Shown here one piece after another: positions 21,778-61,326 of a stretch of DNA of 64,000 nt. Made by a program: the position numbers and the translations under genes. The first letter of the stretch is position 1, and every line of letters starts with the position of its first letter. Where the stretch lies: NCBI GenBank assembly GCA_037133595.1, contig JBAXNV010000001.1, positions 30,479 through 94,478 of the forward strand, given 5' to 3'. The notes under the pieces were generated by a model. It was given only the letters and a program-made list of their open reading frames with translations, searched no databases and had not been told where the DNA came from. Origin of the DNA: a bacterium (GTDB lineage Bacteria; Patescibacteriota; Microgenomatia; UBA1400; UBA12108).

Positions 21778-21779
21778 AG

Positions 21780-21811
21780 TAGTCGAATAATAGTCGATTA
21801 TTAGTCGATTG
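21780..21811. repeat. three tandem 10-11 bp direct repeats (TAGTCGAATAA / TAGTCGATTAT / TAGTCGATTG) abutting the Fic start codon
   Basis: Read directly from the sequence; the same unit appears at 51064-51093 upstream of the second Fic gene. Confidence 0.7.
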
Positions 21812-21828
21812 TCAAGTAACAAGCCATC

Positions 21829-24442: not shown

Positions 24443-24486
24443 TACCGCCTATTTATAACATGTAGATGAGGATACATTCCCAATGT

Positions 24487-24517
24487 TTGACACTTATTGC
24501 TGTCACACATATATAAT
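24487..24517 (+). promoter_or_regulatory. sigma70-like promoter (TTGACA, 17 nt spacer, TATATA) for the GT2 gene at 24529
   Basis: Consensus-like hexamers read in the divergent intergenic region. Confidence 0.3.
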
Positions 24518-24528
24518 ACAACCTTATT

Positions 24529-25377
24529 ATGATAAAAATACTGAAGAAATATCACAACAGTTATCTAGTTTATAAAATGCTTCACAAGAAGGAATCTCTC
24601 TTTGGGAACAGAATCCAAGTTGTAGAAGGATTGGCACAGAACAACCTCAAACCTATAGATACTCAGATCAATCCAATTTCAATAATTATTCTTAATCATA
24701 ATAATGGAAACATCCTCCCAAAATGCCTGGACTCACTAATAAAATATAATGATTACGGTTATCGAATCATTGTGGTAGATAATTTATCAGCAGACAAATC
24801 TGTTGAGTTTTTAGGGAAAAAATACAAAAACATAATAACAATAGTACGTAATAAGATTAATGGATGTGCTTCTGGTAGAAACCTTGGGGCAATAGAGGCT
24901 GGTCAGGGATTATTAGTATTTCTTGACAGCGATCAGGGGCCAACAGCTCACAATTGGTTAGACAACTATCTTCAAATATTGTTATCAGATCCAAAGGTAG
25001 GAGCAATCGGTAGTAATGGAGGGTTCTTCACGGAAAGAGATCTTACCGGACCTTTACTAAGCCTGTTTCCGAATTTAGGGATGAAACAAGGCGTTATTTG
25101 TCGTACAAATATCGATTACCTAGAAACGAGTGGTTTTTTGATTAGGAAAACCTTATTTGATAAGATAGGGGGATTTGACGATCATTATGATCCATATATT
25201 TTTGAGGATGCAGACTTGTCGAGAAAAATTGTTAAGTCGAATCATTTACTATGTTATAGTCCCTATCTATCTGCTTATCATGATGCTCACAGTACAACCA
25301 AATCCGATCAGGCAGGCCAAGATTACTTAACACAATTTAGCAATAACGCGGCGTATTTTAGAAAAAAGTGGTTGTAA
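24529..25377 (+). CDS. family 2 glycosyltransferase
   Basis: ISIIILNHNNG...IIVVDNLSADKS...DSDQ. Confidence 0.65.
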   Translation: MIKILKKYHNSYLVYKMLHKKESLFGNRIQVVEGLAQNNLKPIDTQINPISIIILNHNNGNILPKCLDSLIKYNDYGYRIIVVDNLSADKSVEFLGKKYKNIITIVRNKINGCASGRNLGAIEAGQGLLVFLDSDQGPTAHNWLDNYLQILLSDPKVGAIGSNGGFFTERDLTGPLLSLFPNLGMKQGVICRTNIDYLETSGFLIRKTLFDKIGGFDDHYDPYIFEDADLSRKIVKSNHLLCYSPYLSAYHDAHSTTKSDQAGQDYLTQFSNNAAYFRKKWL

Positions 25378-26280
25378 TTTGTACTCCGTTGATAAGAGAC
25401 TTTCTTCATAAAACGGCTTTTCAGTTTGGTCAAACTGCTCTTTTGCATACACGCCAGCTACAGAATAGCCAATTCTATTCATCTGTCTAGTCATCTGGTG
25501 ATAAAACCTTGCGATTGATCCATCTATTCTAATTTTGTCCTGGGTTGGAACGACCTTCATTAATCGGATCCAAAATGCATTAGACTCTTCAGTGGCGCGC
25601 TGACTATAAGTACCTTGTCCCGGATGCTTCCTGGAGCAAAGTAGATAGTCTTTCATGAAGAGGATATTGTATTTTGGAAATAATCTTAGCCACATATCAT
25701 AATCCTGAGAAGTGCGAAGGCTTGGATCAAATAATCCTTCTTTAATTAAAATATTTTTAGGAATTAAGGTAGTACATCCGAAAACTAATCCTTTTACGAC
25801 GGGGTAGTAATGACATTGAAATTTTCTTACGTCGTGCACATTCTCGATGTTAACGGATTCGACGATATCTGCATTTTCATTAATTATTCGATAATTAGAA
25901 AACAATATTGTCTTATTTCGCAAATCTGCATCTATTTCATTCAACGTCTCTACTTGCTGCTCGATCTTATTGGGTTCAAACACGTCATCATGCGACAGCC
26001 AAGAGATATATTGTCCTTTAGCTTCAATTATCCCAATATTCAAAGCATCGGATACTCCACTATTCTTTTTCCCTATATATCTAATTTTATTTCCATAAGA
26101 TTTAACTATTTCTTCTGTATCATCAGTCGAGCCATCATTTACAACAATGACTTCGCAGTTTTTGTGGGTTTGCGCCAGTGCACTGTCTATGGCTTGGCAC
26201 AAGTATCTGGTACCATTGTAGACAGGAATTACGATAGAAACTAACAGATCATTGTTACTTTTATTCATCAGAGACAGCAA
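25327..26280 (-). CDS. family 2 glycosyltransferase
   Basis: VSIVIPVYNGTRYLCQAIDSALAQTHKNCEVIVVNDGSTDDT; paralogue of 27569..28696. Confidence 0.7.
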   Translation of the reverse strand: MLSLMNKSNNDLLVSIVIPVYNGTRYLCQAIDSALAQTHKNCEVIVVNDGSTDDTEEIVKSYGNKIRYIGKKNSGVSDALNIGIIEAKGQYISWLSHDDVFEPNKIEQQVETLNEIDADLRNKTILFSNYRIINENADIVESVNIENVHDVRKFQCHYYPVVKGLVFGCTTLIPKNILIKEGLFDPSLRTSQDYDMWLRLFPKYNILFMKDYLLCSRKHPGQGTYSQRATEESNAFWIRLMKVVPTQDKIRIDGSIARFYHQMTRQMNRIGYSVAGVYAKEQFDQTEKPFYEESLLSTEYKLQPLFSKIRRVIAKLC

Positions 26281-26292
26281 TCTTTCTTTGAT

Positions 26293-27582
26293 TTAGTCGA
26301 CTAACTCTAGAAACTTCAATCTGTCACGAACGATCCTACTAATATTTTCTGGACTAAAGTATTTATTAGCAGTATATTTACCCTCAACTATAAGTTTATT
26401 TCTCCAGACTGAATCAGAAACCATTCGATGCATGTGTGTTATTGCCTCATCAATATTTGGATTAGCCCAAATCAAACCATCACCGGGCTTTGAACCAACA
26501 TATTTGCCATTTACAGGAACTAGATCATAACCAACGAGTGCCGTATTCATATGTGTCATATACTGCATATTACCTGACCATGCAGTTGAAATTACCGGCG
26601 TGCCCAAAGACATAGCTTCTAGAGGCAACAAACCAAAACCTTCAGAACGATGCAAAGATATCACAGCATCTGATATCTGAACTAATGTTCTTTTTTCGAT
26701 ATCTGATAGATATTTTTCTATAAAATAAATATGCGGATAAGGCGACAATGCCTTCTTTAATTCTTGGATGTGTCTTCTATGTTTGTTTGAATAATTCAGT
26801 TTCAATACCAATCCAACATTATGGTCATCTGGGGAAAAAGCTTTTAAAAAAGCTTTAGCAACAGCATGAGGATTTTTTCGGGACACATAGCTCGTGCAAT
26901 CATAAGCAAACGTAAATATGAATATATTGCTGTCGATCTTAAAATGGTTTCTACCATCTTTTAGGATTGTTTTTTTTGGATTTGCGAATAGTGGAACTGT
27001 GATAACGGGAACGATTGATTTTTTCCCAATTGCAATTGTACAAAAATCAGAAAGAGTCCATATTTCGTGGAACATACTCAAATGACGGCTATAAATTTCA
27101 GGTAGTTCTTCTAGCTCCCATGCCAAATATCCGATATTAAAATATTTTTTGCCATCAAGGCCGAGATGTAACATCATTGCTGATGCATTTGAGGTAGCAT
27201 GACAAGAAAAAAGATTAACGCTGTATGGTTTTTTGCTTTTAAATTCTAATTTACATTTTTTAAGATCGGATAAATCAAATATATTATACGGAATTTGAGC
27301 ACTATCTAATAACTGTTGTAACGAGCGAGCTATTTCGCCAGCACTGTTTTTCAAATCATAAACGAAAAGATTTACGCCTTGTGGCAAATTACTAAATCTG
27401 CGACGATTTAATCTGACATTTTCATTGTACAAATAAATTTTTTGATAAAATGCATCTTTAAAATTGCCGTAAATTTTACCAGGTAAAACAGACTTTATAA
27501 TATGCTTTACTGAACGTATTACAGGGAATGTGTTAATCTTTATTGACAAGTGTTGTCTGTCAATTTGTTTATTTATGACCAT
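26293..27582 (-). CDS. family 4-like glycosyltransferase (GT-B)
   Basis: RSEGFGLLPLEAMSLGTPVISTAWSGN. Confidence 0.6.
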   Translation of the reverse strand: MVINKQIDRQHLSIKINTFPVIRSVKHIIKSVLPGKIYGNFKDAFYQKIYLYNENVRLNRRRFSNLPQGVNLFVYDLKNSAGEIARSLQQLLDSAQIPYNIFDLSDLKKCKLEFKSKKPYSVNLFSCHATSNASAMMLHLGLDGKKYFNIGYLAWELEELPEIYSRHLSMFHEIWTLSDFCTIAIGKKSIVPVITVPLFANPKKTILKDGRNHFKIDSNIFIFTFAYDCTSYVSRKNPHAVAKAFLKAFSPDDHNVGLVLKLNYSNKHRRHIQELKKALSPYPHIYFIEKYLSDIEKRTLVQISDAVISLHRSEGFGLLPLEAMSLGTPVISTAWSGNMQYMTHMNTALVGYDLVPVNGKYVGSKPGDGLIWANPNIDEAITHMHRMVSDSVWRNKLIVEGKYTANKYFSPENISRIVRDRLKFLELVD

Positions 27583-28696
27583 ATTTTGTCTTAATTTTAC
27601 TGCTTAAAAGTATAAATATTTTTTTTAATGCTTTCCAAAGCCCATATTTCTTGATTGCTTTGAAAGTTCTGGCAGGTATATCGTAACGCAAAAAAAGACG
27701 GATTGTTTTATGAGCAGATTTAGCAATAGTTTTTTCTTCACTAACCAATGAAACTGTATTTAAATTTCGCCTACCATACATTGTTTTAATACCTTTGCCT
27801 TCTGCTAATACCTCCACATAATCAAGTGCAATAGAATAGTCTGCATATGCAAAAAAATACTCCATATCAAGAAAAAACTGTGCTACTGTCGGAGATATTT
27901 GAAGGATTTCTTCATCGTTTAGATGATCTAGAATGTCAATATAGAGCAAACTATACTCGATATTACCCCGAGTATGAGATCTCCTACCTTGTCTGCTAGA
28001 TGATTCTCGAGCTGTAATTAGAACTTCATTTATATATAGGTGTGGAAACTTTGCAAATGCTCGGTAATAGAATTCAAAATCGTGGGCTACCAATGATGTT
28101 TCATCAAATAATCCAACTGTTTCAAATACTTTTTTTGAAAACAGGTGGGTGCAGCCATGTGTTTTATTGTAAATAACAGGATATAGCCACAAATCATTTC
28201 TTTTTGGATACTCGTCTCTATGTTGCTGGTAACCAGCAGTGGGAAATGTTCTCGTGTAATCTTCGTTCATTCCGTCCAAATCAGAAATTATAATAGTGTC
28301 TCTATTTTTCAATTTGGAGAGTTCTTCTATAGCTCGAGAAATCTTTTGTGGATAGTATAAATCATCATGACTTAGCCAAGAAAAATATTCTCCACGCATT
28401 TCTTTTATACCGAGATTGAGAGCAGTTGATGTTCCTCCATTTTTCTTAGAAAAATAGCGAATTTTATCACCATAAGACAATGCAATTTTTTCGGTGGCCC
28501 CATCATCATTTGATCCATCATTGATAACAATTATCTCTATGTTCTTATATGTTTGAGACAAGGCGCTATCAATAGCTTCACGAAGAAAATTTGAGCCGTT
28601 ATATACAGGGATCACGATTGATACGAGTGGATTCCAGCTTAATGATTTGATTATTATTGGCTTCTTTTTATTATTATTTATCATAACTTTGTCCAA
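27569..28696 (-). CDS. family 2 glycosyltransferase
   Basis: VSIVIPVYNGSNFLREAIDSALSQTYKNIEIIVINDGSNDDG. Confidence 0.7.
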   Translation of the reverse strand: MDKVMINNNKKKPIIIKSLSWNPLVSIVIPVYNGSNFLREAIDSALSQTYKNIEIIVINDGSNDDGATEKIALSYGDKIRYFSKKNGGTSTALNLGIKEMRGEYFSWLSHDDLYYPQKISRAIEELSKLKNRDTIIISDLDGMNEDYTRTFPTAGYQQHRDEYPKRNDLWLYPVIYNKTHGCTHLFSKKVFETVGLFDETSLVAHDFEFYYRAFAKFPHLYINEVLITARESSSRQGRRSHTRGNIEYSLLYIDILDHLNDEEILQISPTVAQFFLDMEYFFAYADYSIALDYVEVLAEGKGIKTMYGRRNLNTVSLVSEEKTIAKSAHKTIRLFLRYDIPARTFKAIKKYGLWKALKKIFILLSSKIKTKYGHK

Positions 28697-29790
28697 ATAG
28701 TTCTATTAACATATTCTGTGTAACTTGCAATAATTTTGACTACTTTTTGTGCCAAATGATCGACATCATAATCTTTAACAACGCCAATCTGACCAATTTG
28801 GCTCGTAACAATTTTTATAGAATTTAACACATTTTCTTTTTTTAACCCACTCATAATCAGCGTACCTTCATCCATGCCCTCTGGTCTTTCATGTGCTTGT
28901 CTAATCGTAATAGCAGGAAAAACTAACAGTGACGACTCTTCGGTAATAGTGCCGCTATCGGAGATCACACAGAAAGCATTTTGTTGCAATTTAATATAAT
29001 CAAAAAAACCAAAAGGTTTACTTATTCTGATTAATTCGTGCAACTCAATATTTTTCTCTATTAACAACTTTTGCGTTCTAGGATGACAGGAAAAAATTAT
29101 TGGCATCCTATATTGTTCACAAATTGCATTAAGTGAATTAACTAAGTCAGTAAAGTTACTCCAATTATCAATATTTTCCTCGCGATGTACGCTTAAAACA
29201 AAGTATTTTTTTGCTGTCAAATCTAGTTTTGTCAAAATTTCACTCTTCTCAATTAGTTTGCTATTTTCTCTAAGTACTTCTTTCATGCTCGAACCAACCT
29301 TGATAATAGTTTCTGGCCTAATACCTTCGGTAATTAGATATCTCCTAGCGTGTTCTGTAATTGTTAAATTAATGTCGCTTAAATGGTCAATAATTTTTCT
29401 GTTGATTTCTTCTGGCACTCTTTGGTCAAAACATCTATTGCCAGCTTCCATGTGAAAAATTGGAATTCTATTTCTTTTAGCAGAAATTACAGATAAGCAA
29501 GAATTGGTGTCCCCGTAAACAAGTAAAGCATCAGGTGTATTTTGTTTAAACAACTCGTCTGATTTACTAATAATATTGCCGATTGTCTCGGCAGTCGTTT
29601 TGCCCGTTGAGTTCATGAAATAATCTGGTTTTCTGATGCCCAATTCTTCAAAAAAAATCTCATTTAATTCATAGTCATAATTCTGACCAGTGTGAACTAA
29701 AATATGCTCGGTATACAAATCCAATTCTTTAATCACCTGCGACAACTTGATAATTTCTGGTCTTGTGCCAACAATGGTCATGACTTTCAT
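28681..29790 (-). CDS. UDP-N-acetylglucosamine 2-epimerase (non-hydrolysing), WecB/FnlC/Cap5G family
   Basis: MKVMTIVGTRPEIIKL...HTGQNYD...; family-specific N-terminal signature. Confidence 0.8.
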   Translation of the reverse strand: MKVMTIVGTRPEIIKLSQVIKELDLYTEHILVHTGQNYDYELNEIFFEELGIRKPDYFMNSTGKTTAETIGNIISKSDELFKQNTPDALLVYGDTNSCLSVISAKRNRIPIFHMEAGNRCFDQRVPEEINRKIIDHLSDINLTITEHARRYLITEGIRPETIIKVGSSMKEVLRENSKLIEKSEILTKLDLTAKKYFVLSVHREENIDNWSNFTDLVNSLNAICEQYRMPIIFSCHPRTQKLLIEKNIELHELIRISKPFGFFDYIKLQQNAFCVISDSGTITEESSLLVFPAITIRQAHERPEGMDEGTLIMSGLKKENVLNSIKIVTSQIGQIGVVKDYDVDHLAQKVVKIIASYTEYVNRTIWTKL

Positions 29791-29828
29791 ATTATTCTCC
29801 CAAAGATAATTTTTGATAAAACTTAAAT

Positions 29829-30857
29829 CTATTTTTCCAATTCATTCTGAATGTAATCGAGTGATTTCAATTTTTCAACAACCTCGTCGACGGTCAGTCG
29901 CTTGGTGTTATGAGAGGTATAATCCTCTTCCTTAGATATGTTCTTGTCTCCTACGCTAAAGTATTTTGAATAATTAAGGTCGCGGTTATCTGCTGGTATC
30001 CGGAAAAAATCTCCCAGATCCTCTGCCTTGGCCATTTCTTCGCGGTTAACAAGCGATTCAAATAATTTTTCACCATGTCTAGATCCGATAATTTTTAAGT
30101 TATTTTTTGCTTTAAAAATTATCAAAAGCGCCTTGGCCAAATCAAGGATAGTAGAGGCAGGTGCTTTTTGAACAAAAATATCCCCACCCAGTGCATGTTC
30201 ATAAGCATAAAGCACTAATTTAACAGATTCGTCAAGTGACATAAGAAATCTAGTCATGTCAGGATCGGTGACGGTAATATCCTTATTCTCTTTTATTTGT
30301 TTGATAAATAATGGAATAACTGATCCTCTAGATGCCATAACATTCCCGTATCGTGTAGCACAAAATATTGTTTTGCCGGGATTAGTGTTGCGGGATTTAG
30401 CCAGCATAAGTTTCTCCATCATTGCTTTCGACATTCCCATGGCATTAATGGGGTACACGGCTTTGTCAGTACTCAAGACGATAACTTTTTCTACATTATT
30501 GTGCTCTGCGGCATTCAATACGTTGTCTGCACCCAATATGTTTGTTCTTACTGCTTCCATCGGGAAAAATTCACACGAAGGAACCTGCTTAAGGGCTGCG
30601 GCGTGGAATACAAAGTTTACACCTCTCATTGCGTTATCAATTGTTTCCAGGTTCCTAACATCACCAATAATAAATTTAACTCTCATATCAGCAATTTCTA
30701 TTCTCATTTTCTCTTGTTTTTCTTCATCTCTACTAAAAATCCTAATTTCACCAATATCAGTATTATCCAAAAAATGTCGTAGCATTTTGTTGCCGAATGA
30801 ACCAGTACCACCAGTGATAAGAAGTGTTTTATTTTTAAAACTTATTGTTTTTTGCAT
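29829..30857 (-). CDS. UDP-GlcNAc 4,6-dehydratase, CapD/FnlA/PseB family
   Basis: LLITGGTGSFGN Rossmann motif; 342 aa; polysaccharide biosynthesis protein CapD-like. Confidence 0.8.
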   Translation of the reverse strand: MQKTISFKNKTLLITGGTGSFGNKMLRHFLDNTDIGEIRIFSRDEEKQEKMRIEIADMRVKFIIGDVRNLETIDNAMRGVNFVFHAAALKQVPSCEFFPMEAVRTNILGADNVLNAAEHNNVEKVIVLSTDKAVYPINAMGMSKAMMEKLMLAKSRNTNPGKTIFCATRYGNVMASRGSVIPLFIKQIKENKDITVTDPDMTRFLMSLDESVKLVLYAYEHALGGDIFVQKAPASTILDLAKALLIIFKAKNNLKIIGSRHGEKLFESLVNREEMAKAEDLGDFFRIPADNRDLNYSKYFSVGDKNISKEEDYTSHNTKRLTVDEVVEKLKSLDYIQNELEK

Positions 30858-31752
30858 ATTGATCTCGATTATGTTTATAAAATTCTGAACCTAAAAAATC
30901 ATTATACATGTCAAAGATTAGTTTATTCCAGCTAGGCACATCATAATCAATAGATATCTTAAACTTGTCCGAATCAAGAGATCTATCAATTTCAATAGAT
31001 TCATCAGCACTTATAATAATTTTCTTCTGGTATATTTCCGCAACGATGGTAAGTAAATCATGTTTTGAAATTGGTCGAGCAGAAATGTGATGAAGTCCGA
31101 AAAGTTTATCATTGGGAATTATTTTATTTATCAACAATCTGGAAAATTCCAGCGTAGTCAACCCGGAGAATATTGCCTTTTTGTAACCTTTAACCGTAGC
31201 TTCTTGGCTCAAAAACCAGTTTATAAGGCTGATATTCGAACTTAGTTCATGTCCAATAATAGATGTTCGTAGAGTAAGAGTATTGGTACGATCGCTTACT
31301 TCACCCAAATACTTGGTCATACCATACACGTCATGACATGTGGGTTCATCATCTTCGTGGTAATTACCAGATTTACCATCAAACACACAATCAGTGGCTA
31401 TGGTAATAAATCTACAGTTATTTTTTTCACACAACTCTGAAACGAGGTGGGGGAATAACGCATTAATCTCTATACAATCTCTTATATTACTAGACTTATT
31501 CTGTTTGATGATGCCAATACAATTTATTACTATATCTGGATGAAGTGATTTAATTATACTTTCTACAGTATCTATCTTGTTGGCATAAACCCCATCAAAT
31601 ATTTTTAGATCAAAAATATTGGGTAATAGGCCAGCAAAGCTATTTTTGCTGGTAACAGTTCCATATACATCAAATTCTCGATTTTTTGACAAGGTTTCAA
31701 ATACTTTGTGACCTAACATTCCGCTCGCGCCAAGGACAATAATTCTTTTCAT
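30835..31752 (-). CDS. NAD(P)-dependent sugar-nucleotide reductase/epimerase (RmlD substrate-binding-like; FnlB-like role)
   Basis: MKRIIVLGASGMLG Rossmann N-terminus; operonic with the dehydratase and 2-epimerase. Confidence 0.55.
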   Translation of the reverse strand: MKRIIVLGASGMLGHKVFETLSKNREFDVYGTVTSKNSFAGLLPNIFDLKIFDGVYANKIDTVESIIKSLHPDIVINCIGIIKQNKSSNIRDCIEINALFPHLVSELCEKNNCRFITIATDCVFDGKSGNYHEDDEPTCHDVYGMTKYLGEVSDRTNTLTLRTSIIGHELSSNISLINWFLSQEATVKGYKKAIFSGLTTLEFSRLLINKIIPNDKLFGLHHISARPISKHDLLTIVAEIYQKKIIISADESIEIDRSLDSDKFKISIDYDVPSWNKLIFDMYNDFLGSEFYKHNRDQYAKNNKF

Positions 31753-31835
31753 AATCTAGCTAAGATTATAGCAATTAAGTTTGTGGCAATATAGGGTATC
31801 TTCACCTAATCAATTCTACTTGGTACAATTCAAAT

Positions 31836-32444
31836 ATGGCTCAGATCAGCTTTCCATCAGACGACAATATCACTTACCTTTTTCTCGACTGGGGCGAGCT
31901 CGGCGCTCTTACCCAGGTACTAGCTACCAAGATCTTAGATTCTGGCGCTGCTCCATATGATCGTATCATAGCGCTTGCAACAGGCGGCCAGACGATGAGC
32001 AAAGCCATTAAGGATTATCTCAATATCCAAAATAGTAGCAGTATGCATATCTCTTTTTACACCGGTATTGGCACAACCAACAAAACTCCCGTTATCACCC
32101 AGTCAATAGCCACCGATCTGCAGGGTGAGCGCGTGCTTGTGTTCGACGATGTCAACGACACTGGGGCAACTCTCGAAGTAGCCAAGGCATATCTCCAAAT
32201 GCGAGGGGTCAAGAGTATCGACACCGCGTGTCTTTTGCAAAAGCCCCGCACCAAATGCCCTTCAACTTTCTTTGGCGACAGTACCGAGAGCTGGATTATC
32301 TTTCCCGATGAGGTAAGAGAAACCATCACCCTTCTTAGCTCTCGCTGGAGCAAGCAGGGGGTAAGTAAGCAAGATATCCACTCTCGCCTCAACCAGATCG
32401 GGTTTCTCGACTCACATCTAACGCTTATTGAGAACTATTCGTAA
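31836..32444 (+). CDS. phosphoribosyltransferase (type I PRTase) family protein
   Basis: VLVFDDVNDTGATL PRPP-binding motif. Confidence 0.5.
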   Translation: MAQISFPSDDNITYLFLDWGELGALTQVLATKILDSGAAPYDRIIALATGGQTMSKAIKDYLNIQNSSSMHISFYTGIGTTNKTPVITQSIATDLQGERVLVFDDVNDTGATLEVAKAYLQMRGVKSIDTACLLQKPRTKCPSTFFGDSTESWIIFPDEVRETITLLSSRWSKQGVSKQDIHSRLNQIGFLDSHLTLIENYS

Positions 32445-43645: not shown

Positions 43646-44719
43646 ATGCTCATTGCAATCGATGCTCGTTTCTATGGCACAGAGAATACCGGTCTTGGCC
43701 GCTATACTCAAAATGTGCTTGCGCATTTTTTTGAAAAAGATGATACCAACGAGTACATCGTATTTGTTACCCCCAAATATGCTAGACTCATATTCCCAGG
43801 CAGAGTAAAGGTTGTGCCCATTAATGTACGTCACTACACACTTGCCGAGCAATTGGTAATACCTTATCTATTGCTCAAGTATCGTGCAGAATTACTGTAC
43901 ACTCTTCACTTCAATGCACCCATTTTCTGCCCCGTTCCATTAGTTATCACGATTCACGATCTTATAAAGACTCATTTTCAGGACATTGCAACTTCTACTC
44001 ATGGTCATTTGGCTTTTGCCATCAAAAGGTGGGGGTATCGCACCGTGATGGGCGCCGTAATCGCAAATGCCAAGAATATCATTGTCCCGTCAGTCGCTGT
44101 CAAATCCGATATTCTTACGGCCTATCCAGATGCAGTAGGAACCAAAATAATCCCAATTCACGAGGCAGTTGACTCATTCTTTGTTAATTCTGCCCCCAAA
44201 ATAATCGCCAAACCAAAAATATTTTCCTCTCTCTTCAACCTGCTTTTTGTTGGCAATGCTTACCCTCACAAAAATCTTACTAATCTACTCTCCGCTTTCA
44301 CCATTTTGCGAAGAGAAGGCGATTACCATCTTACGATCTTAAGCAAAAAAACACCTTTTCTTGCCAGCGCATTAAAAAAACTCAACCCGATCGATCGCCC
44401 ATTTGTTGCAGTCGATGAAGACGTTAGCGACAAGGCATTGCTGCGCCATTACACTACAACAGGAGTCTTGGTAGTGCCATCGTTTATGGAGGGGTTTGGG
44501 CTCCCAGCTCTAGAGGCTTTATCGGTGGGTACGCCCGTTGCCGCTTCAGACATTCCAGTCTTTCGCGAGGTATACGGCAAGCATGTTACCTATTTCAATC
44601 CTTTTGATGCGCTCTCAATGGTCAAAGGGATCAAGCAGGCTTTAGGCAACGGTGTAATTTATCAATATCCAAGGACGTGGGGGCAGGTAGCTACTGAGAT
44701 TCGCAAGGTGCTACTGTGA
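43646..44719 (+). CDS. family 4 glycosyltransferase
   Basis: MEGFGLPALEALSVGTPVAASDIPVFREV. Confidence 0.65.
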   Translation: MLIAIDARFYGTENTGLGRYTQNVLAHFFEKDDTNEYIVFVTPKYARLIFPGRVKVVPINVRHYTLAEQLVIPYLLLKYRAELLYTLHFNAPIFCPVPLVITIHDLIKTHFQDIATSTHGHLAFAIKRWGYRTVMGAVIANAKNIIVPSVAVKSDILTAYPDAVGTKIIPIHEAVDSFFVNSAPKIIAKPKIFSSLFNLLFVGNAYPHKNLTNLLSAFTILRREGDYHLTILSKKTPFLASALKKLNPIDRPFVAVDEDVSDKALLRHYTTTGVLVVPSFMEGFGLPALEALSVGTPVAASDIPVFREVYGKHVTYFNPFDALSMVKGIKQALGNGVIYQYPRTWGQVATEIRKVLL

Positions 44720-45801
44720 AAGTTGCGATAGTTTATGATCGTCTCAACAAGTGGGGCGGGGCAGAGCGAGTTTTACTTGCTTTTCACGAGCTTTTTCCAG
44801 GTGCTGTGTGGTATACGAGTGTATGGGATCCCAGAGTGGCGACTTTTTCGGCCAATTGGGATGTGCATACAAGCTGGCTCAACAAAATCCCTTTTCTTCG
44901 CCATCTGCACGAATGGATGCCGTATCTTATGCCATACATTTTCGAGAGCTTCGACTTGGCCAGCTATGATTTAATCATTTCAATTAGTTCCGAAAGTGCC
45001 AAGGGGGTTATCACCAAGCCAGGTACCATCCATCTCAATTACTGCCTCACTCCAACTCGATATCTATATTCTCACACTGGGGTATATCTCAAGCAAAATC
45101 CAATATATCGCTTAGTTGCCAATGTTCTACGCAAGTGGGATCAGGTTGCGGCGACGCGGCCTGATGAAATGATAGCAATAAGTACCCAAGTGAAAAATAG
45201 AATACAAAAATACTACAATCGCGACAGTGAAGTCATTTTTCCTCCAATTGATATCAAAATATTTTCACCAAGCCCTCAAGGTCTGACCCTGAGGGGCGAT
45301 TATTACCTCGTCGTTTCTCGTCTTGTGCCATACAAGAATATTGATCAAATCGTTAAGGCGTTCAATAAACTGCCAGACAAAAAGCTTGTTATCATTGGAG
45401 TTGGCTCGGAATCAGCCAAGTTGCGCAAGCTAGCAGGCCCAAACATCACATTTCTAGGTCAAGTTGAAGAATCTGCACTCGTTGGCTACTATGCAAGAGC
45501 CAAAGCGTTTATCCAGGCCAATATCGAGGATTTTGGGCTAGCAATGGTCGAGGCACAGGCTGTAGGGATCCCTGTGATTGCCAAAAGAGGTGGTGGGGCA
45601 AACGACATTGTTTTGGACGGCGCAACTGGCTTGTTGTATGATGGCAAAGGAGCTGGCGCGCTGATCCTCGCCATAACTCAATTTGAGACCCAAACATTTG
45701 CAAAAGCTGCCTGCCGCGCAAATGCTCAAAGATTTGATACACATATATGGCAAAGAAAAATAATGGAAAGGGTCACGAATTTATGTCAGAACAAAATCTA
45801 G
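44716..45801 (+). CDS. family 4 glycosyltransferase (GTG start); carries an in-frame copy of the 23-nt palindromic element
   Basis: EDFGLAMVEAQAVGIPVIAKRGGGANDIV; GTGA overlap with the upstream gene. Confidence 0.7.
   Translation: MKVAIVYDRLNKWGGAERVLLAFHELFPGAVWYTSVWDPRVATFSANWDVHTSWLNKIPFLRHLHEWMPYLMPYIFESFDLASYDLIISISSESAKGVITKPGTIHLNYCLTPTRYLYSHTGVYLKQNPIYRLVANVLRKWDQVAATRPDEMIAISTQVKNRIQKYYNRDSEVIFPPIDIKIFSPSPQGLTLRGDYYLVVSRLVPYKNIDQIVKAFNKLPDKKLVIIGVGSESAKLRKLAGPNITFLGQVEESALVGYYARAKAFIQANIEDFGLAMVEAQAVGIPVIAKRGGGANDIVLDGATGLLYDGKGAGALILAITQFETQTFAKAACRANAQRFDTHIWQRKIMERVTNLCQNKI
45274..45297. repeat. 23-nt near-palindromic element CCCTCAAGGTCTGACCCTGAGGG (copy 1, in-frame in the GT4 gene, encoding PQGLTLR)
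   Basis: Identical 23-mer at 59769-59791. Confidence 0.7.
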
Positions 45802-49998: not shown

Positions 49999-51063
49999 TC
50001 ACGCAGCATATTCTTTGCGAGCATTCTTAATTGCATGTGTTTCATTTAAAACATAATATGTAGTAGGGCCGCCAGATTTTCTCTCGATCAGCCCAAGGTC
50101 GACTAGATTGCGGAAATCCATAATTCTAGTTGAGTCAGCTCTCTTGGTAAGTTTGACATACTCCTTGTCACATATTCGCCCATGTGCAGTAAGATAGTTA
50201 AGAATCAACTGATGATAATCCTCAAGTCTGTCGTTAGAAATTAACATATCGAGTAGCTTTTGGATTCGCGATAATTCATCTACAATCCCATCTGTAAAAT
50301 ATTCGAGCCAAAACGTAAAGTCGGTATTATCTGCTATCTCATAATAATCCCCGTACTCTCCAACAGTAGCAAAGTACTTGGTCACATTTTGGTTATAATA
50401 ATTCTCAAAACTAAATAGGTTGAAGGTATTCATGCCCAAGTCTGATAATAATACCTTTGTCAAAAGTCTGGTAGTCCGACCATTTCCATCCATAAATGGG
50501 TGAATTAGCACCATTTGTTTGTGAAAAATACCAGCCAGGATAAGTGAGTCAAGCTCACCGCGATTCAATTTAATATAAGCAATAAGGTCTTGGAGCAACT
50601 GAGGAACATCACCAAAATCGGGTGGTATAAATGCAATCTGTCTCGTTTTTGGGTCGTTGACCACAACGGCACGCTTTCTTAAGTGTCCATTATCTGATTT
50701 GGATAATAGGCCACTGGTCACAACTTTCTGCACCTTGAGTACAAGAGGAAAATCAATTGTCAGGGCTCCTGTCTTAGCTTCCATTTCCAGTTCAATCAAC
50801 GCCTGGTTGTAGTTCAGCACCTCCAGTTCGCTATCTCTTACATTTTCTGGTTTCCCTTTGATCAGTTTTTTAACTTCAGTTAGGGGTAAGGGATTTCCTT
50901 CAATAGAGGTAGAGGCATGGGTAGAGAGATCTTGTGCAGCTCGCCACATCTCCATATACACTAGGCGGGGCAACTTTTTTCCATTAAGATTAGTCCTAAT
51001 TTCTGCAATCTTCTTGATGTTCTCTAGAAGTTTATTAGAGATGGAATATTTTGGACTAAACAT
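49999..51063 (-). CDS. Fic family protein, class II (paralogue of 20737..21777)
   Basis: HPFMDGNGRTTRLLTKVLL; STSIEGN inhibitory motif; start set at the conserved MFSPKYSISNKLL. Confidence 0.8.
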   Translation of the reverse strand: MFSPKYSISNKLLENIKKIAEIRTNLNGKKLPRLVYMEMWRAAQDLSTHASTSIEGNPLPLTEVKKLIKGKPENVRDSELEVLNYNQALIELEMEAKTGALTIDFPLVLKVQKVVTSGLLSKSDNGHLRKRAVVVNDPKTRQIAFIPPDFGDVPQLLQDLIAYIKLNRGELDSLILAGIFHKQMVLIHPFMDGNGRTTRLLTKVLLSDLGMNTFNLFSFENYYNQNVTKYFATVGEYGDYYEIADNTDFTFWLEYFTDGIVDELSRIQKLLDMLISNDRLEDYHQLILNYLTAHGRICDKEYVKLTKRADSTRIMDFRNLVDLGLIERKSGGPTTYYVLNETHAIKNARKEYAA

Positions 51064-51093
51064 TAGTCGATTATAGTCGATTATAGTCGATTG
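51064..51093. repeat. three perfect tandem 10-bp repeats (TAGTCGATTA x2 + TAGTCGATTG) abutting the Fic start codon
   Basis: Read directly from the sequence; on the gene strand they read CAATCGACTATAATCGACTATAATCGACTA-ATG, giving TATAAT-like hexamers. Confidence 0.7.
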
Positions 51094-51125
51094 GTCAAAC
51101 CAATAACACATGTTAAAATAAGTTC

Positions 51126-58352: not shown

Positions 58353-59102
58353 ATGTCCAATCTTAAGCACACAGCCGCCATTATTTTAGCTGCTGGCAAG
58401 GGCTCCAGGATGCATGCCAAGCTCAAAAACAAGGTAGCTTTTGTTCTCGATGGACAGCCGATGGTTGCCCGTGCCGCGACCAATCTTAGGTTAGCCGGAG
58501 TTGGCCAAATCATTGCCGTTGTTGGCTTTGCCGCCGACTCTGTCAAAAAAGCTCTTGGCGACCAGGTAACTTACGTCACTCAGAGTGAACAACTTGGGAC
58601 CGGCCATGCCATCAAAACTGCGCTCCCCGCCATGGCACCCGAGATGACGACTGTGCTCTCAGTTTATGGCGACGACTCAGCTTTTTACCCCGCAACACTT
58701 TATGAGTCTATGATTCACAAGCTTATTGAGAGCGGCTCGGGACTTTTGTTTTTAACAATCATCAAGGAAGATCCTTTTGGGCTCGGTCGCATCATAAGAG
58801 ACAATGTTGGCAATGTACTTCGAATTGTCGAAGAAAAAAACGCAACCGAAAAAGAGAAGCAAATCCAAGAAATAAACACTGGTTTTTACTGTTTCAAACG
58901 CGATTTTTTAGAGAAATATATTTGCGAAATTACTCAAAATGAGATTTCTGGCGAGTACTACCTGACAGATCTTGTTGAAATTGCGCTAAAACACGGCGAA
59001 AAAGTAGACACTTATCGGGCAGATAGTAATCTTTGGCACGGCGTCAACAACAGGAGTGATTTTGCCAAAGCCAGGGTCAAGATTTCCAAAAATTATGAAT
59101 AA
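58353..59102 (+). CDS. sugar-1-phosphate nucleotidyltransferase, GlmU N-terminal (UDP-GlcNAc pyrophosphorylase) domain only
   Basis: AIILAAGKGSRM; QSEQLGTGHAIKTALP (GlmU signature); 249 aa with no LbH acetyltransferase domain. Confidence 0.6.
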   Translation: MSNLKHTAAIILAAGKGSRMHAKLKNKVAFVLDGQPMVARAATNLRLAGVGQIIAVVGFAADSVKKALGDQVTYVTQSEQLGTGHAIKTALPAMAPEMTTVLSVYGDDSAFYPATLYESMIHKLIESGSGLLFLTIIKEDPFGLGRIIRDNVGNVLRIVEEKNATEKEKQIQEINTGFYCFKRDFLEKYICEITQNEISGEYYLTDLVEIALKHGEKVDTYRADSNLWHGVNNRSDFAKARVKISKNYE

Positions 59103-61326
59103 AAAAGCCTATTTTATCGGAATAAAGGGAGTCGGAATGATGGCTCTTGCTCTTGCCATGCAAGATGTTGGCTGGCAGGTTTCAGGGTCAGATACAGCCG
59201 AAAACTTCATTACCGATCACGTGCTTTCCGCCCGCAACCTAGAGGTCCGTCCCCTAGGCTCTGCGATCCCAGAGGGGACGGACCTCATCGTTTACTCAAC
59301 TGCTTACACAAAGCCAATCCATCCCACAGCCAAAATAGTTTCGCTTGCTCAGGCATTAGCTGATTTTGTAAAAGATCGAACAGTTATCGCTGTGGCAGGG
59401 GTAGGGGGCAAGACTACAACTAGCGCCATGCTCGCAACGCTGTTTCGCGCTGCTGGCCGCGATGCTGGGTATTATATAGGCACAAGCGATATCGTAGGGC
59501 TCAATGCTCCAGGAGCCGCTGGCACTGATCCAGTGTATATAATCGAAGCCGATGAGTATGCTATCAGCAAGTCGGATTCACGCCCCAAATTTGCACTACT
59601 AAACCCCAATATTCTCATTACCACCAATATTCAGCACGATCATCCTGACATTTATCCAGACGAAGCCTCAACTCTTGGAACTTTTCGCACTCTTGTTGAG
59701 AGTTTACCACAGGGTTCTACATGGATCGCCTGCGAAGACGATCAACTAACTCATCAATTATTGTGCGACCCTCAAGGTCTGACCCTGAGGGCCAAAACCA
59801 TACGCTACGGAAAGTCGCATCCAATATATCAACAGCTTTCACTCTCTGTCTTTGGCGATCACAACAAGCTGGATGGCACGGCCGCCGTTCTTGCGGCGAT
59901 CGAATCTGGGATCACGATGAAAGAGGCAGTTGTTGCGATCCAAAGTTACAAGGGCGCGACTCGTCGCCAAGAAAAAATGGGTGAGGTTGCAGGGCGTCTT
60001 TTGTACGATGACTACGGGCATCATCCCCACGAAATCGAGTCGACCGTGTCTGCTTTCAAACAAGCTTTCCCACGTAACAAAATAACTCTCGTCTTCGAGT
60101 CTCACACTTATTCGCGCACCGAAAAGTTGCTAGTCGAATTCGCCAAAGCAATTGCGCTTGCCGACAACTGCTACATCATGCCAATTTTTGAAAGTGCTCG
60201 TGAGAAGGGCCAGCCTCACTCTGTTACCCCAGAGAGTTTTGCCAAAGAAGTTGCCAAGTACAATAACAACGTCAAAGCTCTTACTTGGGATAACGCGGCA
60301 GAGACTATCGCCCAAGAGAGCCGTGAAAAAGACCTCATTCTTACAATGGGCGCAGGATTTGTTTATAAGTTGCACACTGAGTTAAGGTCTGTTCTTGAAA
60401 GGAATTCACGAGTGCAACTCGAGAAGGGCTCGCCGGCAGGTGAAAGGACAGATCTCATGGGATTAATCATACAAAAAAACATTCCTTTAGCAAAGTACAC
60501 TTATTTCAAGCTTGGTGGTCCCTCCGATTATTTTGTAGAAGTCAAAACAATTGTCGAGCTAACAACGGCGCTCTCTTATGCCCAAGATCACAAACTCCCA
60601 TATTTTATCCTAGGTAGTGGTAGTAACATCCTCGTTACCGACAAAGGGTTTCGGGGACTTGTCATCAAAAATAAAATTGCAAACATCACTCAGCAAGACA
60701 ATATCTTGACTGCGGATTCTGGCGTTCCAGTTAATCAACTGGTGACATATGCGATTGCTCAAGGTCTTGCTGGTCTTGAAGATTTCTTGGGGCTGCCAGG
60801 CACTGTCGGGGGGGCGATATTTAACAATGCTCATCACATGGGCGATCTCATTGGCAACCACGTGGTTAATGTCAAAGTTCTTGAGGCAGATGGCAAGATT
60901 AGTACTCTCACTCACAAAGAGCTTGATTTTGCCTATGATTATTCGCGTTTGCACAACACCGACGAGATTATTCTCTCAGTGTCATTTCAGCTCACCAAAA
61001 AAGACAAAGAAGAACTTGCCCAAAAAGGTCAATTTGCTGTGGCGCGCCGCGCCAAGACCCAACCACTCGGTTCCTCAAGCTCTGGCTGTATCTTTCAAAA
61101 TCCAAGTAGCACCCAATCCGCTGGTTACCTCATCGATCAGGCAGGTCTCAAGGGCGCGCGCGTTGGTGGCGCGGTAGTAAGTGATGTACACGCCAACTTT
61201 ATCGTCAACGACGGTAGTGCGACCTCCTCGGATGTGCTTGATCTTATCGAGTTAATTAAGGCCAAAGTGTACCAGGTACATGGTGTAAACCTTGTCAGTG
61301 AAGTGTTTGTGATTGGCGAAAAATAG
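59095..61326 (+). CDS. murC-murB: fused UDP-N-acetylmuramate--L-alanine ligase / UDP-N-acetylenolpyruvoylglucosamine reductase (MurC-MurB)
   Basis: MurC half: FIGIKGVGMMALA, GVGGKTTTSAM, DDYGHHPHEI. MurB half: YFKLGGPSDYF, LGSGSNILV, GLPGTVGGAIFNNA, SSGCIFQNP. Carries copy 2 of the 23-nt element. Confidence 0.8.
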   Translation: MNKKAYFIGIKGVGMMALALAMQDVGWQVSGSDTAENFITDHVLSARNLEVRPLGSAIPEGTDLIVYSTAYTKPIHPTAKIVSLAQALADFVKDRTVIAVAGVGGKTTTSAMLATLFRAAGRDAGYYIGTSDIVGLNAPGAAGTDPVYIIEADEYAISKSDSRPKFALLNPNILITTNIQHDHPDIYPDEASTLGTFRTLVESLPQGSTWIACEDDQLTHQLLCDPQGLTLRAKTIRYGKSHPIYQQLSLSVFGDHNKLDGTAAVLAAIESGITMKEAVVAIQSYKGATRRQEKMGEVAGRLLYDDYGHHPHEIESTVSAFKQAFPRNKITLVFESHTYSRTEKLLVEFAKAIALADNCYIMPIFESAREKGQPHSVTPESFAKEVAKYNNNVKALTWDNAAETIAQESREKDLILTMGAGFVYKLHTELRSVLERNSRVQLEKGSPAGERTDLMGLIIQKNIPLAKYTYFKLGGPSDYFVEVKTIVELTTALSYAQDHKLPYFILGSGSNILVTDKGFRGLVIKNKIANITQQDNILTADSGVPVNQLVTYAIAQGLAGLEDFLGLPGTVGGAIFNNAHHMGDLIGNHVVNVKVLEADGKISTLTHKELDFAYDYSRLHNTDEIILSVSFQLTKKDKEELAQKGQFAVARRAKTQPLGSSSSGCIFQNPSSTQSAGYLIDQAGLKGARVGGAVVSDVHANFIVNDGSATSSDVLDLIELIKAKVYQVHGVNLVSEVFVIGEK
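59769..59791. repeat. 23-nt near-palindromic element CCCTCAAGGTCTGACCCTGAGGG (copy 2, in-frame in murC, encoding PQGLTLR)
   Basis: Identical to 45275-45297. Confidence 0.7.

What the first reader, a model, noticed from the sequence alone, without database searches (positions are those of the whole stretch)
45274..45297. 23-nt near-palindromic element inserted in-frame in two unrelated genes (GT4 and murC)
The identical 23-mer CCCTCAAGGTCTGACCCTGAGGG occurs in the GT4 gene at 45275-45297 and in the MurC half of the MurC-MurB gene at 59769-59791. It has 11-nt arms around a central T with 10 of 11 complementary positions, and flanks are unrelated. In both genes it is in-frame and encodes PQGLTLR in what look like inter-domain linkers. 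This is reminiscent of Rickettsia palindromic elements or other miniature in-frame insertions. It could alternatively be a recognition site for a dyad-binding protein that happens to be tolerated in coding sequence.
Basis: seen in the sequence. Interest (0 to 1): 0.6.

Follow-up and report, generated by a model that had tools for sequence, protein, structure and literature searches.

The report
REP-like palindromes inside CPR genes
The repeated 23-base palindrome is a REP-type hairpin repeat, paired with a RAYT-like tyrosine transposase elsewhere in the same Microgenomates (CPR) genome, that sits in frame inside housekeeping genes and is translated as a short surface loop. Intragenic REPs are already known, but here they hold the same gene positions across distant relatives while carrying each genome's own sequence, which is unusual.

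Summary
CCCTCAAGGTCTGACCCTGAGGG occurs exactly at 45273-45295 (GT4 gene) and 59769-59791 (MurC half of MurC-MurB). Both copies are on the + strand and in the same frame, encoding PQGLTLR; no such match is expected by chance.

It is a dispersed repeat, not a private oddity. Other contigs of the same species hold at least 9 more exact or near-exact copies, in both orientations, mostly in frame inside LeuRS, a class II aaRS, DinB, a UvrD-like helicase and a peptidase. One locus holds a Y1/HUH transposase gene (Pfam Y1_Tnp; its only NCBIfam match is the REP-associated tyrosine transposase model, below cut-off). One copy lies upstream of that gene, two lie in frame inside it, and one abuts its stop codon.

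Related palindromes and this RAYT clade are widespread in Patescibacteria, and several genomes have their own dominant 23-mer. The MurC site is old: 30 of 79 orthologues encode the motif, and all 7 examined at DNA level are palindromic. The GT4 site is specific to this lineage.

Length differences against element-free orthologues (0 to +9 aa) do not fit a simple 23/24-nt insertion.

Verdict: a REP/RAYT system in a new, mainly intragenic form. How it spreads and stays uniform is not resolved.

The parts
45273..45295 (+). REP-like 23-nt imperfect palindrome, copy 1 (CCCTCAAGGTCTGACCCTGAGGG), translated as PQGLTLR (GT4 residues 187-193)
   Evidence: Exact match. In frame in ORF 44716-45801. Coil linker between the two GT-B halves in an AlphaFold model, pLDDT 91. 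Absent from 59 orthologues and from sister genome L129.
59769..59791 (+). REP-like 23-nt imperfect palindrome, copy 2 (identical sequence), translated as PQGLTLR (MurC residues 239-245)
   Evidence: Exact match. In frame in ORF 59056-61326. Helix-to-strand loop in the model. The orthologous site holds a palindrome in L011, L012, L126, L127, L128 and L130.
44716..45801 (+). Host gene 1: family 4 glycosyltransferase (361 aa)
   Evidence: Pfam Glycos_transf_1 / Glyco_trans_1_4. Closest named homologues are Microgenomates.
59056..61326 (+). Host gene 2: fused MurC-MurB (756-aa ORF)
   Evidence: Pfam Mur_ligase, Mur_ligase_M, Mur_ligase_C, FAD_binding_4, MurB_C. Homologues.

Best explanation
The 23-mer is the master sequence of a REP-type (repetitive palindromic) DNA repeat family in a Candidatus Microgenomates (Patescibacteria/CPR) bacterium. 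Its partner is a RAYT-like Y1 HUH tyrosine transposase encoded elsewhere in the same genome.

Shown:
- The repeat is dispersed in both orientations with unrelated flanks.
- Its copies flank the RAYT-like gene and also lie in frame inside it.
- Most copies lie inside protein-coding genes, in the two stop-free frames, and encode 7-8 residue loops (PQG[LQ]TLR or PS[GR]SD[LP]EG).
- Relatives have their own sequence variants, often at the same orthologous gene sites.

Inferred: as with E. coli TnpA-REP and the IS200/IS605 transposases, the enzyme recognises the imperfect hairpin that one DNA strand forms when single-stranded, for example at the replication fork. It cuts and rejoins there, which copies the hairpin to new places or renews it at old ones. 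Selection then keeps only copies that stay in frame, avoid stop codons and fall in tolerant surface loops. The MurC copy in the window occupies an ancient site. The GT4 copy is a recent, lineage-specific gain. The peptide itself is most likely a tolerated by-product.
For: Repeat family in the same species: 8 metagenome loci hold 10 strict copies, plus 5-6 degenerate ones, with unrelated flanks and both orientations. None is expected by chance in shuffles. NCBI proteins MEI6690183, MEI6690198, MEI6690324 and MEI6690773 tie the window's GT4 (360/361 identical) and MurC-MurB (743/743), the LeuRS of L005 (811/812) and the RAYT of L001 (identical) to one MAG.

The enzyme: L001 829-1383 matches Pfam Y1_Tnp at 41.8 bits against a cut-off of 23. 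REP_Tyr_transpos is the only significant NCBIfam match for it, and apart from one marginal hit it is the only match for all 38 family members tested. The HUH motif (PNHFHLL) and the catalytic-Tyr helix (KYIH) align with ISDra2 TnpA.

REPtron-like layout: copies lie at L001 779 (50 nt upstream of the start), 978 and 1300 (in frame inside the gene) and 1510 (directly after the full-length stop codon). Three or four copies at similar spacing recur in L086, L087, L091, L096, L115 and L124. Both internal sites are occupied at constant length in nearly all of the 120 best RAYT homologues.

Family-wide: 148 elements were found in low-GC, mostly Patescibacteria loci. Of these, 99 lie in ORFs of at least 100 aa, with frame use 51/44/4. 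TAG-creating variants are absent from the frame where they would be stop codons.

Within-genome uniformity: 10/11 copies are identical in this species, 11/14 in CAZVYS and 7/9 in JAYEMX.

Conserved orthologous sites: MurC, DinB, rsmH, both internal RAYT sites and five further host families. Stem positions 3/21 and 10/14 covary (p = 8e-16 and 1.5e-6; counts are not phylogenetically independent).

Precedent: intragenic REPs in aaRS, UvrD and polymerase genes, and RAYT genes flanked by REPs (PMC3733652). TnpA-REP processes ssDNA REP hairpins with a bulge (PMC8266576 abstract).
Against: No biochemical activity has been shown.

The RAYT scores below NCBIfam's curated RAYT cut-off (45 against 80 bits). 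By profile it matches ISDra2 TnpA only weakly (E = 0.0016) and does not detect E. coli TnpA-REP in the PDB.

The window variant lacks the GTAG/CGTC tag that defines most described REPs.

In the sampled population the RAYT carries an in-frame TAG (W185*), so it may be inactive there.

Copy density in the unbiased 64-kb window is low (2 copies). No complete genome was available to count copies.

A 23-nt unit cannot insert in frame by itself, and no empty-site polymorphism was found, so transposition in the strict sense is not demonstrated. Length comparisons look more like replacement than insertion.
Confidence: 0.75

Rival explanations
1. Host-selected structural or binding site. The palindromes are kept at fixed places inside genes because the cell uses them. 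They could bind a dyad-symmetric DNA-binding or nucleoid protein, or act as mRNA hairpins that slow ribosomes or RNases at loop or domain boundaries. The RAYT-like gene would then be only a neighbour or another host of the site.
For: Site conservation is deep, reaching host proteins only 44-65% identical, and palindromy is maintained with compensatory changes. There is a modest excess of the G.U-capable version on the sense strand, 27 against 12, p = 0.02. In both window genes the copy sits in a coil just before a beta-strand.
Against: Selection on a site does not give 23/23 identity, including the mismatch and the loop base, across 10 loci of one genome while sister genomes differ at 3-4 positions at the same site. 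Both orientations are used relative to the gene. RNA folding of the sense strand is unremarkable (z = -1.0 and -1.8). Many orthologues lack the element or show it decayed. The sense-strand bias is confounded by amino-acid preference and by non-independent counts.
Confidence: 0.12
2. Fossil selfish insertions of the RPE type. A small palindromic element once spread into genes by an unknown route and now simply decays. The RAYT-like gene is just one more target.
For: Copies are in frame in unrelated genes and the peptides look like passengers. Decayed copies exist. The RAYT of this population carries a premature stop.
Against: Fossils would diverge, yet copies at ancient orthologous sites are identical to each other within a genome. 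The copies in and around the RAYT gene equal the genome's dominant variant in four genomes. Both internal RAYT sites are conserved in nearly all 120 homologues.
Confidence: 0.08
3. Ordinary conserved protein motif, or coincidence. QG.TL(K/R) is simply part of MurC in this lineage, and the GT4 match is chance or convergent.
For: LQGxxLK is the majority consensus at this MurC position among Microgenomates.
Against: The match is exact at nucleotide level over 23 nt, with zero chance expectation. The same 23-mer occurs in at least 7 other unrelated genes of the species, in two reading frames and both orientations. DNA palindromy goes beyond what the peptide requires. The motif is absent from solved MurC proteins.
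Confidence: 0.03
4. Assembly or sequencing artefact, such as a linker or chimera junction.
For: None beyond the oddity of an exact short repeat.
Against: The same GT4 gene with the element is present in independent ENA, Logan, JGI and NCBI assemblies. All intragenic copies keep long ORFs open. Related variants occur in well over a hundred loci of public genome assemblies, mostly Patescibacteria.
Confidence: 0.01

Closest known systems
REP sequences with their RAYT / TnpA-REP transposase ('REPtrons') of Proteobacteria (Nunvar 2010, PMC2817692; Ton-Hoang 2012, PMC3333891; Corneloup 2021, PMC8266576)
   Same: A short imperfect palindrome that is dispersed and genome-specific. Copies flank a stand-alone Y1 HUH transposase gene. 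A conserved mismatch gives the hairpin a polarity. Repeat and enzyme appear to co-vary.
   Different: Most copies here are inside genes and translated. Two copies are built in frame into the transposase gene itself. The window variant has no GTAG/CGTC tag beside the stem. The host is a CPR bacterium. The enzyme falls below the curated RAYT score. Apparent copy density is low.
Intragenic GTAG/CGTC REPs (Di Nocera, De Gregorio and Rocco 2013, PMC3733652)
   Same: REPs lie wholly within ORFs and add short peptide segments. The same kinds of hosts are involved (tRNA synthetases, UvrD-type helicases, error-prone polymerases). Same-site REPs were occasionally seen in recB of two Xanthomonas species.
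   Different: There, intragenic copies are a minority of mostly extragenic families, and other genes of the same functional category were reported as interrupted at different sites. Here at least two thirds are intragenic, and same-site occupancy spans many genera.
Rickettsia palindromic elements (RPE)
   Same: Palindromic repeats found in frame inside functional protein genes, tolerated as surface additions.
   Different: RPEs are several times longer (about 100-150 bp, from my own knowledge), are clear insertions relative to orthologues, have no known partner enzyme and occur in Rickettsia.
REPINs (Bertels and Rainey 2011, PMC3116915; 'Ancient Darwinian replicators', bioRxiv 10.1101/2021.07.10.451892)
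   Same: A population with a master sequence plus mutants. Inheritance with a single RAYT appears vertical. One 57-nt inverted doublet is shared by two aaRS genes of this species.
   Different: The window copies and most others are singlets, not doublets. Copies are intragenic. Old sites are kept uniform.
Sub-terminal hairpins of IS200/IS605 elements (IS608, ISDra2)
   Same: The closest solved relatives of the enzyme. These hairpins are recognised as ssDNA and cleaved by a Y1 HUH transposase.
   Different: Those hairpins are the ends of an element that carries its own transposase gene, and they insert next to a specific tetra- or pentanucleotide. Here the hairpin alone is the repeat, and no conserved flank is seen beyond a frequent 5' G (8 of 12 copies).

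Membership tests
REP (repetitive extragenic palindromic sequence) | Short (about 20-40 bp) imperfect palindrome able to form a stem-loop | tested here: met
   23 nt with arms 10/11 complementary. ssDNA hairpin energy -6.8 to -8.6 kcal/mol.
REP (repetitive extragenic palindromic sequence) | Many dispersed copies with unrelated flanks in one genome | tested here: inconclusive
   11 strict and about 5 degenerate copies were seen in roughly 135 kb of this species, but that sample was selected for hits. The unbiased window has 2 copies in 64 kb. No complete genome was available.
REP (repetitive extragenic palindromic sequence) | GTAG or CGTC tetranucleotide tag at one end (Di Nocera 2013) or 5' of the stem (Quentin 2018) | tested here: not met
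   The window variant ends CCCTCA.../...TGAGGG and flanks are not conserved. Many relatives have CCTACA.../...TGTAGG, so GTAG lies inside the stem, not beside it.
REP (repetitive extragenic palindromic sequence) | Extragenic location | tested here: not met
   Both window copies, and 99 of 148 family members, lie inside ORFs of at least 100 aa.
REP (repetitive extragenic palindromic sequence) | A RAYT gene flanked by the same repeat (REPtron) | tested here: met
   L001 has copies at 779 and 1510 flanking, and at 978 and 1300 inside, the Y1_Tnp gene at 829-1509. It belongs to the same species as the window.
RAYT / TnpA-REP | Y1_Tnp fold with HUH motif and catalytic tyrosine | tested here: met
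   Pfam PF01797 at 41.8 bits (cut-off 23). PNHFHLL and KYIH align with the ISDra2 TnpA motifs.
RAYT / TnpA-REP | Reaches the curated NCBIfam equivalog score (NF047646, 80 bits) | tested here: not met
   44-45 bits. It is nevertheless matched by all 38 family members, and apart from one marginal hit to another model it is their only match.
RAYT / TnpA-REP | Stand-alone gene (no TnpB), about one per genome | tested here: inconclusive
   No TnpB-like ORF lies next to it in L001 or L012. The number per genome is unknown. L012 holds a divergent second-type Y1_Tnp.
RAYT / TnpA-REP | Cleaves and rejoins its cognate REP as single-stranded DNA | not testable with these tools
   Needs the in vitro cleavage/strand-transfer assay of PMC8266576.
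Rickettsia palindromic element (RPE) | Palindromic element of about 100-150 bp that is a clear in-frame insertion relative to orthologues | tested here: not met
   The unit is 23 nt. Net length differences against orthologues without the element are 0 to +9 aa and inconsistent.
REPIN | Two REPs in inverted orientation forming one long hairpin as the repeated unit | tested here: not met
   The window copies are singlets. One doublet is shared by LeuRS (L005) and a class II aaRS (L006) elsewhere in the species.
MITE | Terminal inverted repeats around an internal segment, with target-site duplication | tested here: not met
   There is no internal segment and no duplicated flank.
DNA uptake sequence (DUS/USS) | Short motif at very high density (about one per kb), also as single non-palindromic units | tested here: not met
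   The half-site occurs only within the two palindromes in 64 kb.

The most novel reading that the evidence does not exclude
In Microgenomates the hairpins beside and inside the RAYT gene act as master copies. A RAYT-driven, roughly length-neutral overwrite process (cut, exchange and rejoin, or short-patch conversion at the replication fork) keeps renewing hairpins at fixed positions inside essential genes such as murC, dinB, rsmH and the aaRS genes. On this reading it is a domesticated system of concerted evolution acting within coding sequence, possibly kept because the DNA hairpins serve the host, rather than classical transposition. It would explain three things: the in-frame state despite a 23-nt unit, loops that are no longer than in element-free orthologues, and identical genome-specific sequences at sites older than the genera.
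Probability: 0.25. Interest if true: 0.8.

Novelty: new variant of a known kind. Interest (0 to 1): 0.6.

Why it matters
CPR/Patescibacteria genomes are tiny, gene-dense and thought to be poor in mobile DNA. This finding points to a REP/RAYT-type system that is widespread in them. About 7,700 homologues of the enzyme were found at E below 1e-5, and all named top hits are Patescibacteria. I found no report of it in the searched literature.

The system has adapted to a genome with almost no intergenic space by living inside genes as translated loops, including inside its own transposase gene.

Because the same gene sites are occupied across genera while sequences are uniform within a genome, it is a natural test case for how REP populations are copied and homogenised. 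That question is still open even for E. coli REPs.

Practically, these elements create short lineage-specific loop segments in essential enzymes (MurC, aaRS, DinB). Such segments can mislead alignments and phylogenies, but they could also serve as lineage markers.

Tried and rejected
Searches that gave no direct answer:
- The exact or near-exact 23-mer pattern found nothing in one-genome-per-species GTDB contigs or in IMG/VR viral contigs, so a phage or plasmid origin has no support.
- There are no extra degenerate copies (up to 6 mismatches) and no lone half-sites in the window.
- There is no RAYT gene in the window. tblastn hits only the two palindromes.
- There is no Rfam family or tRNA in the window.
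- Cluster look-ups for strain variants lacking the element gave none, so no empty site was found.

Ideas tested and dropped:
- Simple 24-nt (G + 23-mer) insertion. A 5' G is present in only 8 of 12 copies, and the length differences do not fit.
- Orientation rule relative to the host gene. Both orientations are used.
- mRNA-hairpin function. Sense-strand RNA folds are not exceptional, and the sense-strand G.U bias is weak and confounded.
- Similarity of the sister genome's GT4 linker to the element (13/23 at a 1-nt offset). It is not convincing and that sequence is not palindromic.
- DUS/USS, MITE, CRISPR repeat, terminator. Their anatomy does not fit.

Literature searches for REP/RAYT in CPR or Patescibacteria returned nothing relevant.
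Full report
1. THE OBSERVATION

The 23-mer CCCTCAAGGTCTGACCCTGAGGG occurs exactly twice in the window, at 45273-45295 and 59769-59791, both on the + strand. None of 100 dinucleotide-preserving shuffles gave a match, even at 3 mismatches. It is the only exact repeat of at least 20 nt between unrelated parts of the window. The 11-nt half-site occurs nowhere else. Flanks are unrelated.

Both copies are read in the same frame, xxC CCT CAA GGT CTG ACC CTG AGG Gxx = PQGLTLR. One is in a family 4 glycosyltransferase ORF (44716-45801). The other is in the MurC half of a fused MurC-MurB ORF (59056-61326).

The arms pair 10/11. The + strand has an A.C mismatch and the - strand a G.T pair. Predicted ssDNA hairpins are -6.8 kcal/mol (+ strand) and -7.7 to -8.6 kcal/mol (- strand).

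AlphaFold models place both peptides in coil:
- GT4 (mean pLDDT 91.0): residues 187-193 lie in the linker 184-195 between the two Rossmann halves.
- MurC (mean pLDDT 89.3): residues 239-245 lie in a helix-to-strand loop (237-246) inside the central domain, which is not an inter-domain linker.

2. IT IS A DISPERSED REPEAT OF THIS SPECIES

A palindromic pattern that allows the two asymmetric positions found nothing in GTDB species representatives or viral contigs. It did find 8 metagenome contigs with 10 sites, 7 of them from one sample. Relaxing to 6 mismatches added 5-6 degenerate copies, against none in shuffles. The sequence is the same 23-mer in both orientations, with unrelated flanks.

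Most copies are inside long ORFs that stay open:
- LeuRS (three copies)
- a UvrD/AddA-like helicase (three copies within 90 nt)
- a DinB-type polymerase
- a class II aaRS
- a peptidase S51

Exact-sequence look-ups tie all of this to one organism. NCBI proteins MEI6690183 (GT4, 360/361 identical to the window), MEI6690198 (MurC-MurB, 743/743), MEI6690324 (LeuRS of L005, 811/812) and MEI6690773 (the transposase of L001, identical) carry neighbouring accession numbers of one MAG. That they come from one MAG is my inference from the numbering.

The closest named homologues of the host genes are Woesebacteria, Collierbacteria and other Microgenomates.

3. THE PARTNER ENZYME

In L001 a 184-aa ORF (829-1383) matches Pfam Y1_Tnp (41.8 bits, cut-off 23). 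Its only NCBIfam match is the REP-associated tyrosine transposase model (45 bits, below the curated 80). All 38 family members tested also match that model, and only one of them has any other hit, a marginal one. Its HUH motif (PNHFHLL) and tyrosine helix (KYIH) align with ISDra2 TnpA, weakly for the single sequence and at E = 0.0016 for a family profile.

The repeat surrounds and penetrates this gene:
- a 2-mismatch copy 50 nt upstream (779)
- exact copies in frame inside the gene at 978 (PQGLTLR) and 1300 (PSGSDLEG)
- an exact copy starting right after the stop codon of the full-length form (1510)

In this population the gene has an in-frame TAG (W185*). An ENA variant is full length at 226 aa. 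The window itself has no such gene.

4. THE FAMILY BEYOND THIS SPECIES

By my own estimate about 9 chance sites are expected in 596 Gb.

Nearly all multi-copy genomes are Patescibacteria: Beckwithbacteria, Collierbacteria, Woesebacteria and 'Patescibacteria group' MAGs. Several TPA MAGs labelled 'Pseudomonadales' are also among them. Their RAYT genes are 50-75% identical to CPR ones, so they are probably mislabelled. The isolated hits in high-GC or unrelated taxa match the chance expectation.

Of 148 elements in low-GC loci, 99 lie in ORFs of at least 100 aa. They use the two stop-free frames about equally (51 and 44) and the third frame rarely (4). In the LQGxTLK frame the variant that would create TAG is never seen, and an A.A mismatch replaces it. 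That is what selection on a translated sequence would produce.

Several genomes have one dominant 23-mer: 10/11 copies here, 11/14 in CAZVYS, 7/9 in JAYEMX and 6/10 in JAZDDW. Others are mixed. Loci with three or four copies at spacings of about 200, 300 and 210 nt recur, and they are RAYT loci.

The enzyme has about 7,700 homologues at E below 1e-5. The named ones among the best 120 are all Patescibacteria. Both internal sites are occupied at constant length in nearly all 120. The site-2 peptides (PSGPGPEG, PAGPGPAG, PARSDLAG and similar) read as frame-0 translations of palindrome variants, and two of these variants occur as DNA in other genes of L012 and L128.

5. OLD SITES AND NEW SITES

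At the MurC site, 30 of 79 Microgenomates orthologues (58-69% identical) encode [LP]QG.[TSA]L[KRQ], and 16 more encode a decayed form. LQGxxLK is the family consensus there. Solved MurC proteins from E. coli, H. influenzae and others have nothing similar.

I fetched DNA for six orthologues, chosen by their peptide only. All six are 10-11/11 palindromes in the same register, with paired changes such as CCTT...AAGG to CCTG...CAGG and GGTC.GACC to GGCC.GGCC. L012 has the identical 23-mer in GlyRS. L126 has a near-identical copy (one central base different) near the 3' end of murC, where it overlaps the murB start, and L128 has a 2-mismatch relative in rsmH.

Whenever two element-bearing host proteins in my sample were homologous, the elements nearly always mapped to the same aligned position. 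This held for MurC, DinB (3 genomes), rsmH, both RAYT sites (10 genomes) and five other families.

By contrast, none of 59 GT4 orthologues has the motif. The sister genome GCA_023245255.1, which does have the MurC copy, lacks the GT4 copy.

So the window shows one ancient site and one recent gain. Because ancient sites (MurC, DinB, RAYT internal 1 and 2) carry this genome's own master sequence, while sister genomes differ at 3-4 positions at the same site, the copies evolve in concert.

6. WHAT DOES NOT FIT SIMPLE INSERTION

The unit is 23 nt. Only a 5' G is enriched beyond it, in 8 of 12 copies.

Net length differences against orthologues that lack the element:

| Gene | Comparison | Net difference |
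|---|---|---|
| GlyRS | L012 against the window | 0 aa |
| GT4 | window against sister genome | +1 aa |
| rsmH | occupied against unoccupied | +2 to +4 aa |
| MurC | long against short class | +3 to +4 aa |
| RAYT site 1 | L118 against L094 | +9 aa |

The DinB loop is made almost wholly of element peptide yet is no longer than my recollection of the E. coli loop. The element is also read in different frames in different genomes there. No strain-level empty site was found.

Two readings remain open: either old insertions were later trimmed, or copies are written over existing sequence. I cannot decide between them.

7. COMPARISON WITH WHAT IS KNOWN

REPs flanking a RAYT gene ('REPtron'), co-evolution of REP and TnpA-REP, and recognition of an imperfect ssDNA hairpin are established for Proteobacteria (PMC2817692, PMC3333891, PMC8266576).

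Intragenic REPs that add short peptides to aaRS, UvrD-type helicases and polymerases were described by Di Nocera et al. 2013, who also equated some Rickettsia RPEs with REPs (PMC3733652).

The features that differ here:
- the CPR host
- the predominance of translated copies
- two copies built into the transposase gene across the whole clade
- no GTAG tag beside the stem in this variant
- same-site occupancy across genera with genome-specific sequence

Full-text searches found no report of REP/RAYT in CPR.

8. VERDICT

The best explanation is a REP/RAYT-type system in a mainly intragenic form (confidence 0.75). The mechanism of spread and homogenisation is inferred, not shown. Novelty: a new variant of a known kind. 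Interest: 0.6.

Noticed in passing
window 59056-61326: MurC and MurB are fused into one ORF. Only the two nearest relatives (P0122, P0123, 67-69% identical) share the fusion. Other Microgenomates have separate adjacent genes.
   Followed up: partly
window 20737-21822 (-) and 49999-51111 (-): Two paralogous Fic-domain genes (HPFMDGNGRTTR motif) share a 298-nt stretch at 73% identity. This is the longest repeat in the window.
   Followed up: partly
window 24001-32000: GC content drops to about 0.35, against 0.40-0.48 elsewhere. This could be a foreign or surface-polysaccharide island. Not examined.
   Followed up: no
L001 1381-1383 (same species, outside the window): The RAYT-like gene has an in-frame TAG where relatives have an invariant Trp (W185*), and the downstream frame is intact up to the normal stop. 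An ENA variant (P0247) is full length. This is either a nonsense polymorphism or a recent inactivation.
   Followed up: partly
L005 8918-8978 and L006 4223-4283: LeuRS and a class II aaRS of the same species share a 57-nt composite: the 23-mer, a 15-nt spacer, and a degenerate inverted copy. It encodes PSGSDLEGQDG(S/G)A(P/T)Q(G/D)L(T/S)L and resembles a REPIN doublet.
   Followed up: partly
L002 1125; L037 4203; L088 5814: DinB-type polymerases of three genomes carry the palindrome in the same loop but read it in different frames (SPQGQTLRA against PSRSDLVG / PSGSDPVG). This implies independent arrival or replacement at one site.
   Followed up: partly
L012 18081-18749: A second, divergent Y1_Tnp gene sits inside the dcw cluster between ftsW and murG. 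It has no internal or flanking palindromes.
   Followed up: partly
L050 3552; L099 186: In a SAM-methyltransferase the element peptide LQG(R/Q)TLK runs straight into the VLDLGCGNG motif. It therefore occupies what is normally a structured strand-preceding segment, not a free loop.
   Followed up: no
L016, L020, L087, L094, L118 and about 35 other loci: GTDB-set TPA MAGs titled 'uncultured Pseudomonadales bacterium' have GC content of 0.34-0.53. Three of them (L087, L094, L118) carry RAYT genes 50-75% identical to Woesebacteria, Collierbacteria and Beckwithbacteria ones. They are probably mislabelled Patescibacteria.
   Followed up: partly
window 1-64000: No tRNA gene and no Rfam family at gathering score in 64 kb.
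   Followed up: yes
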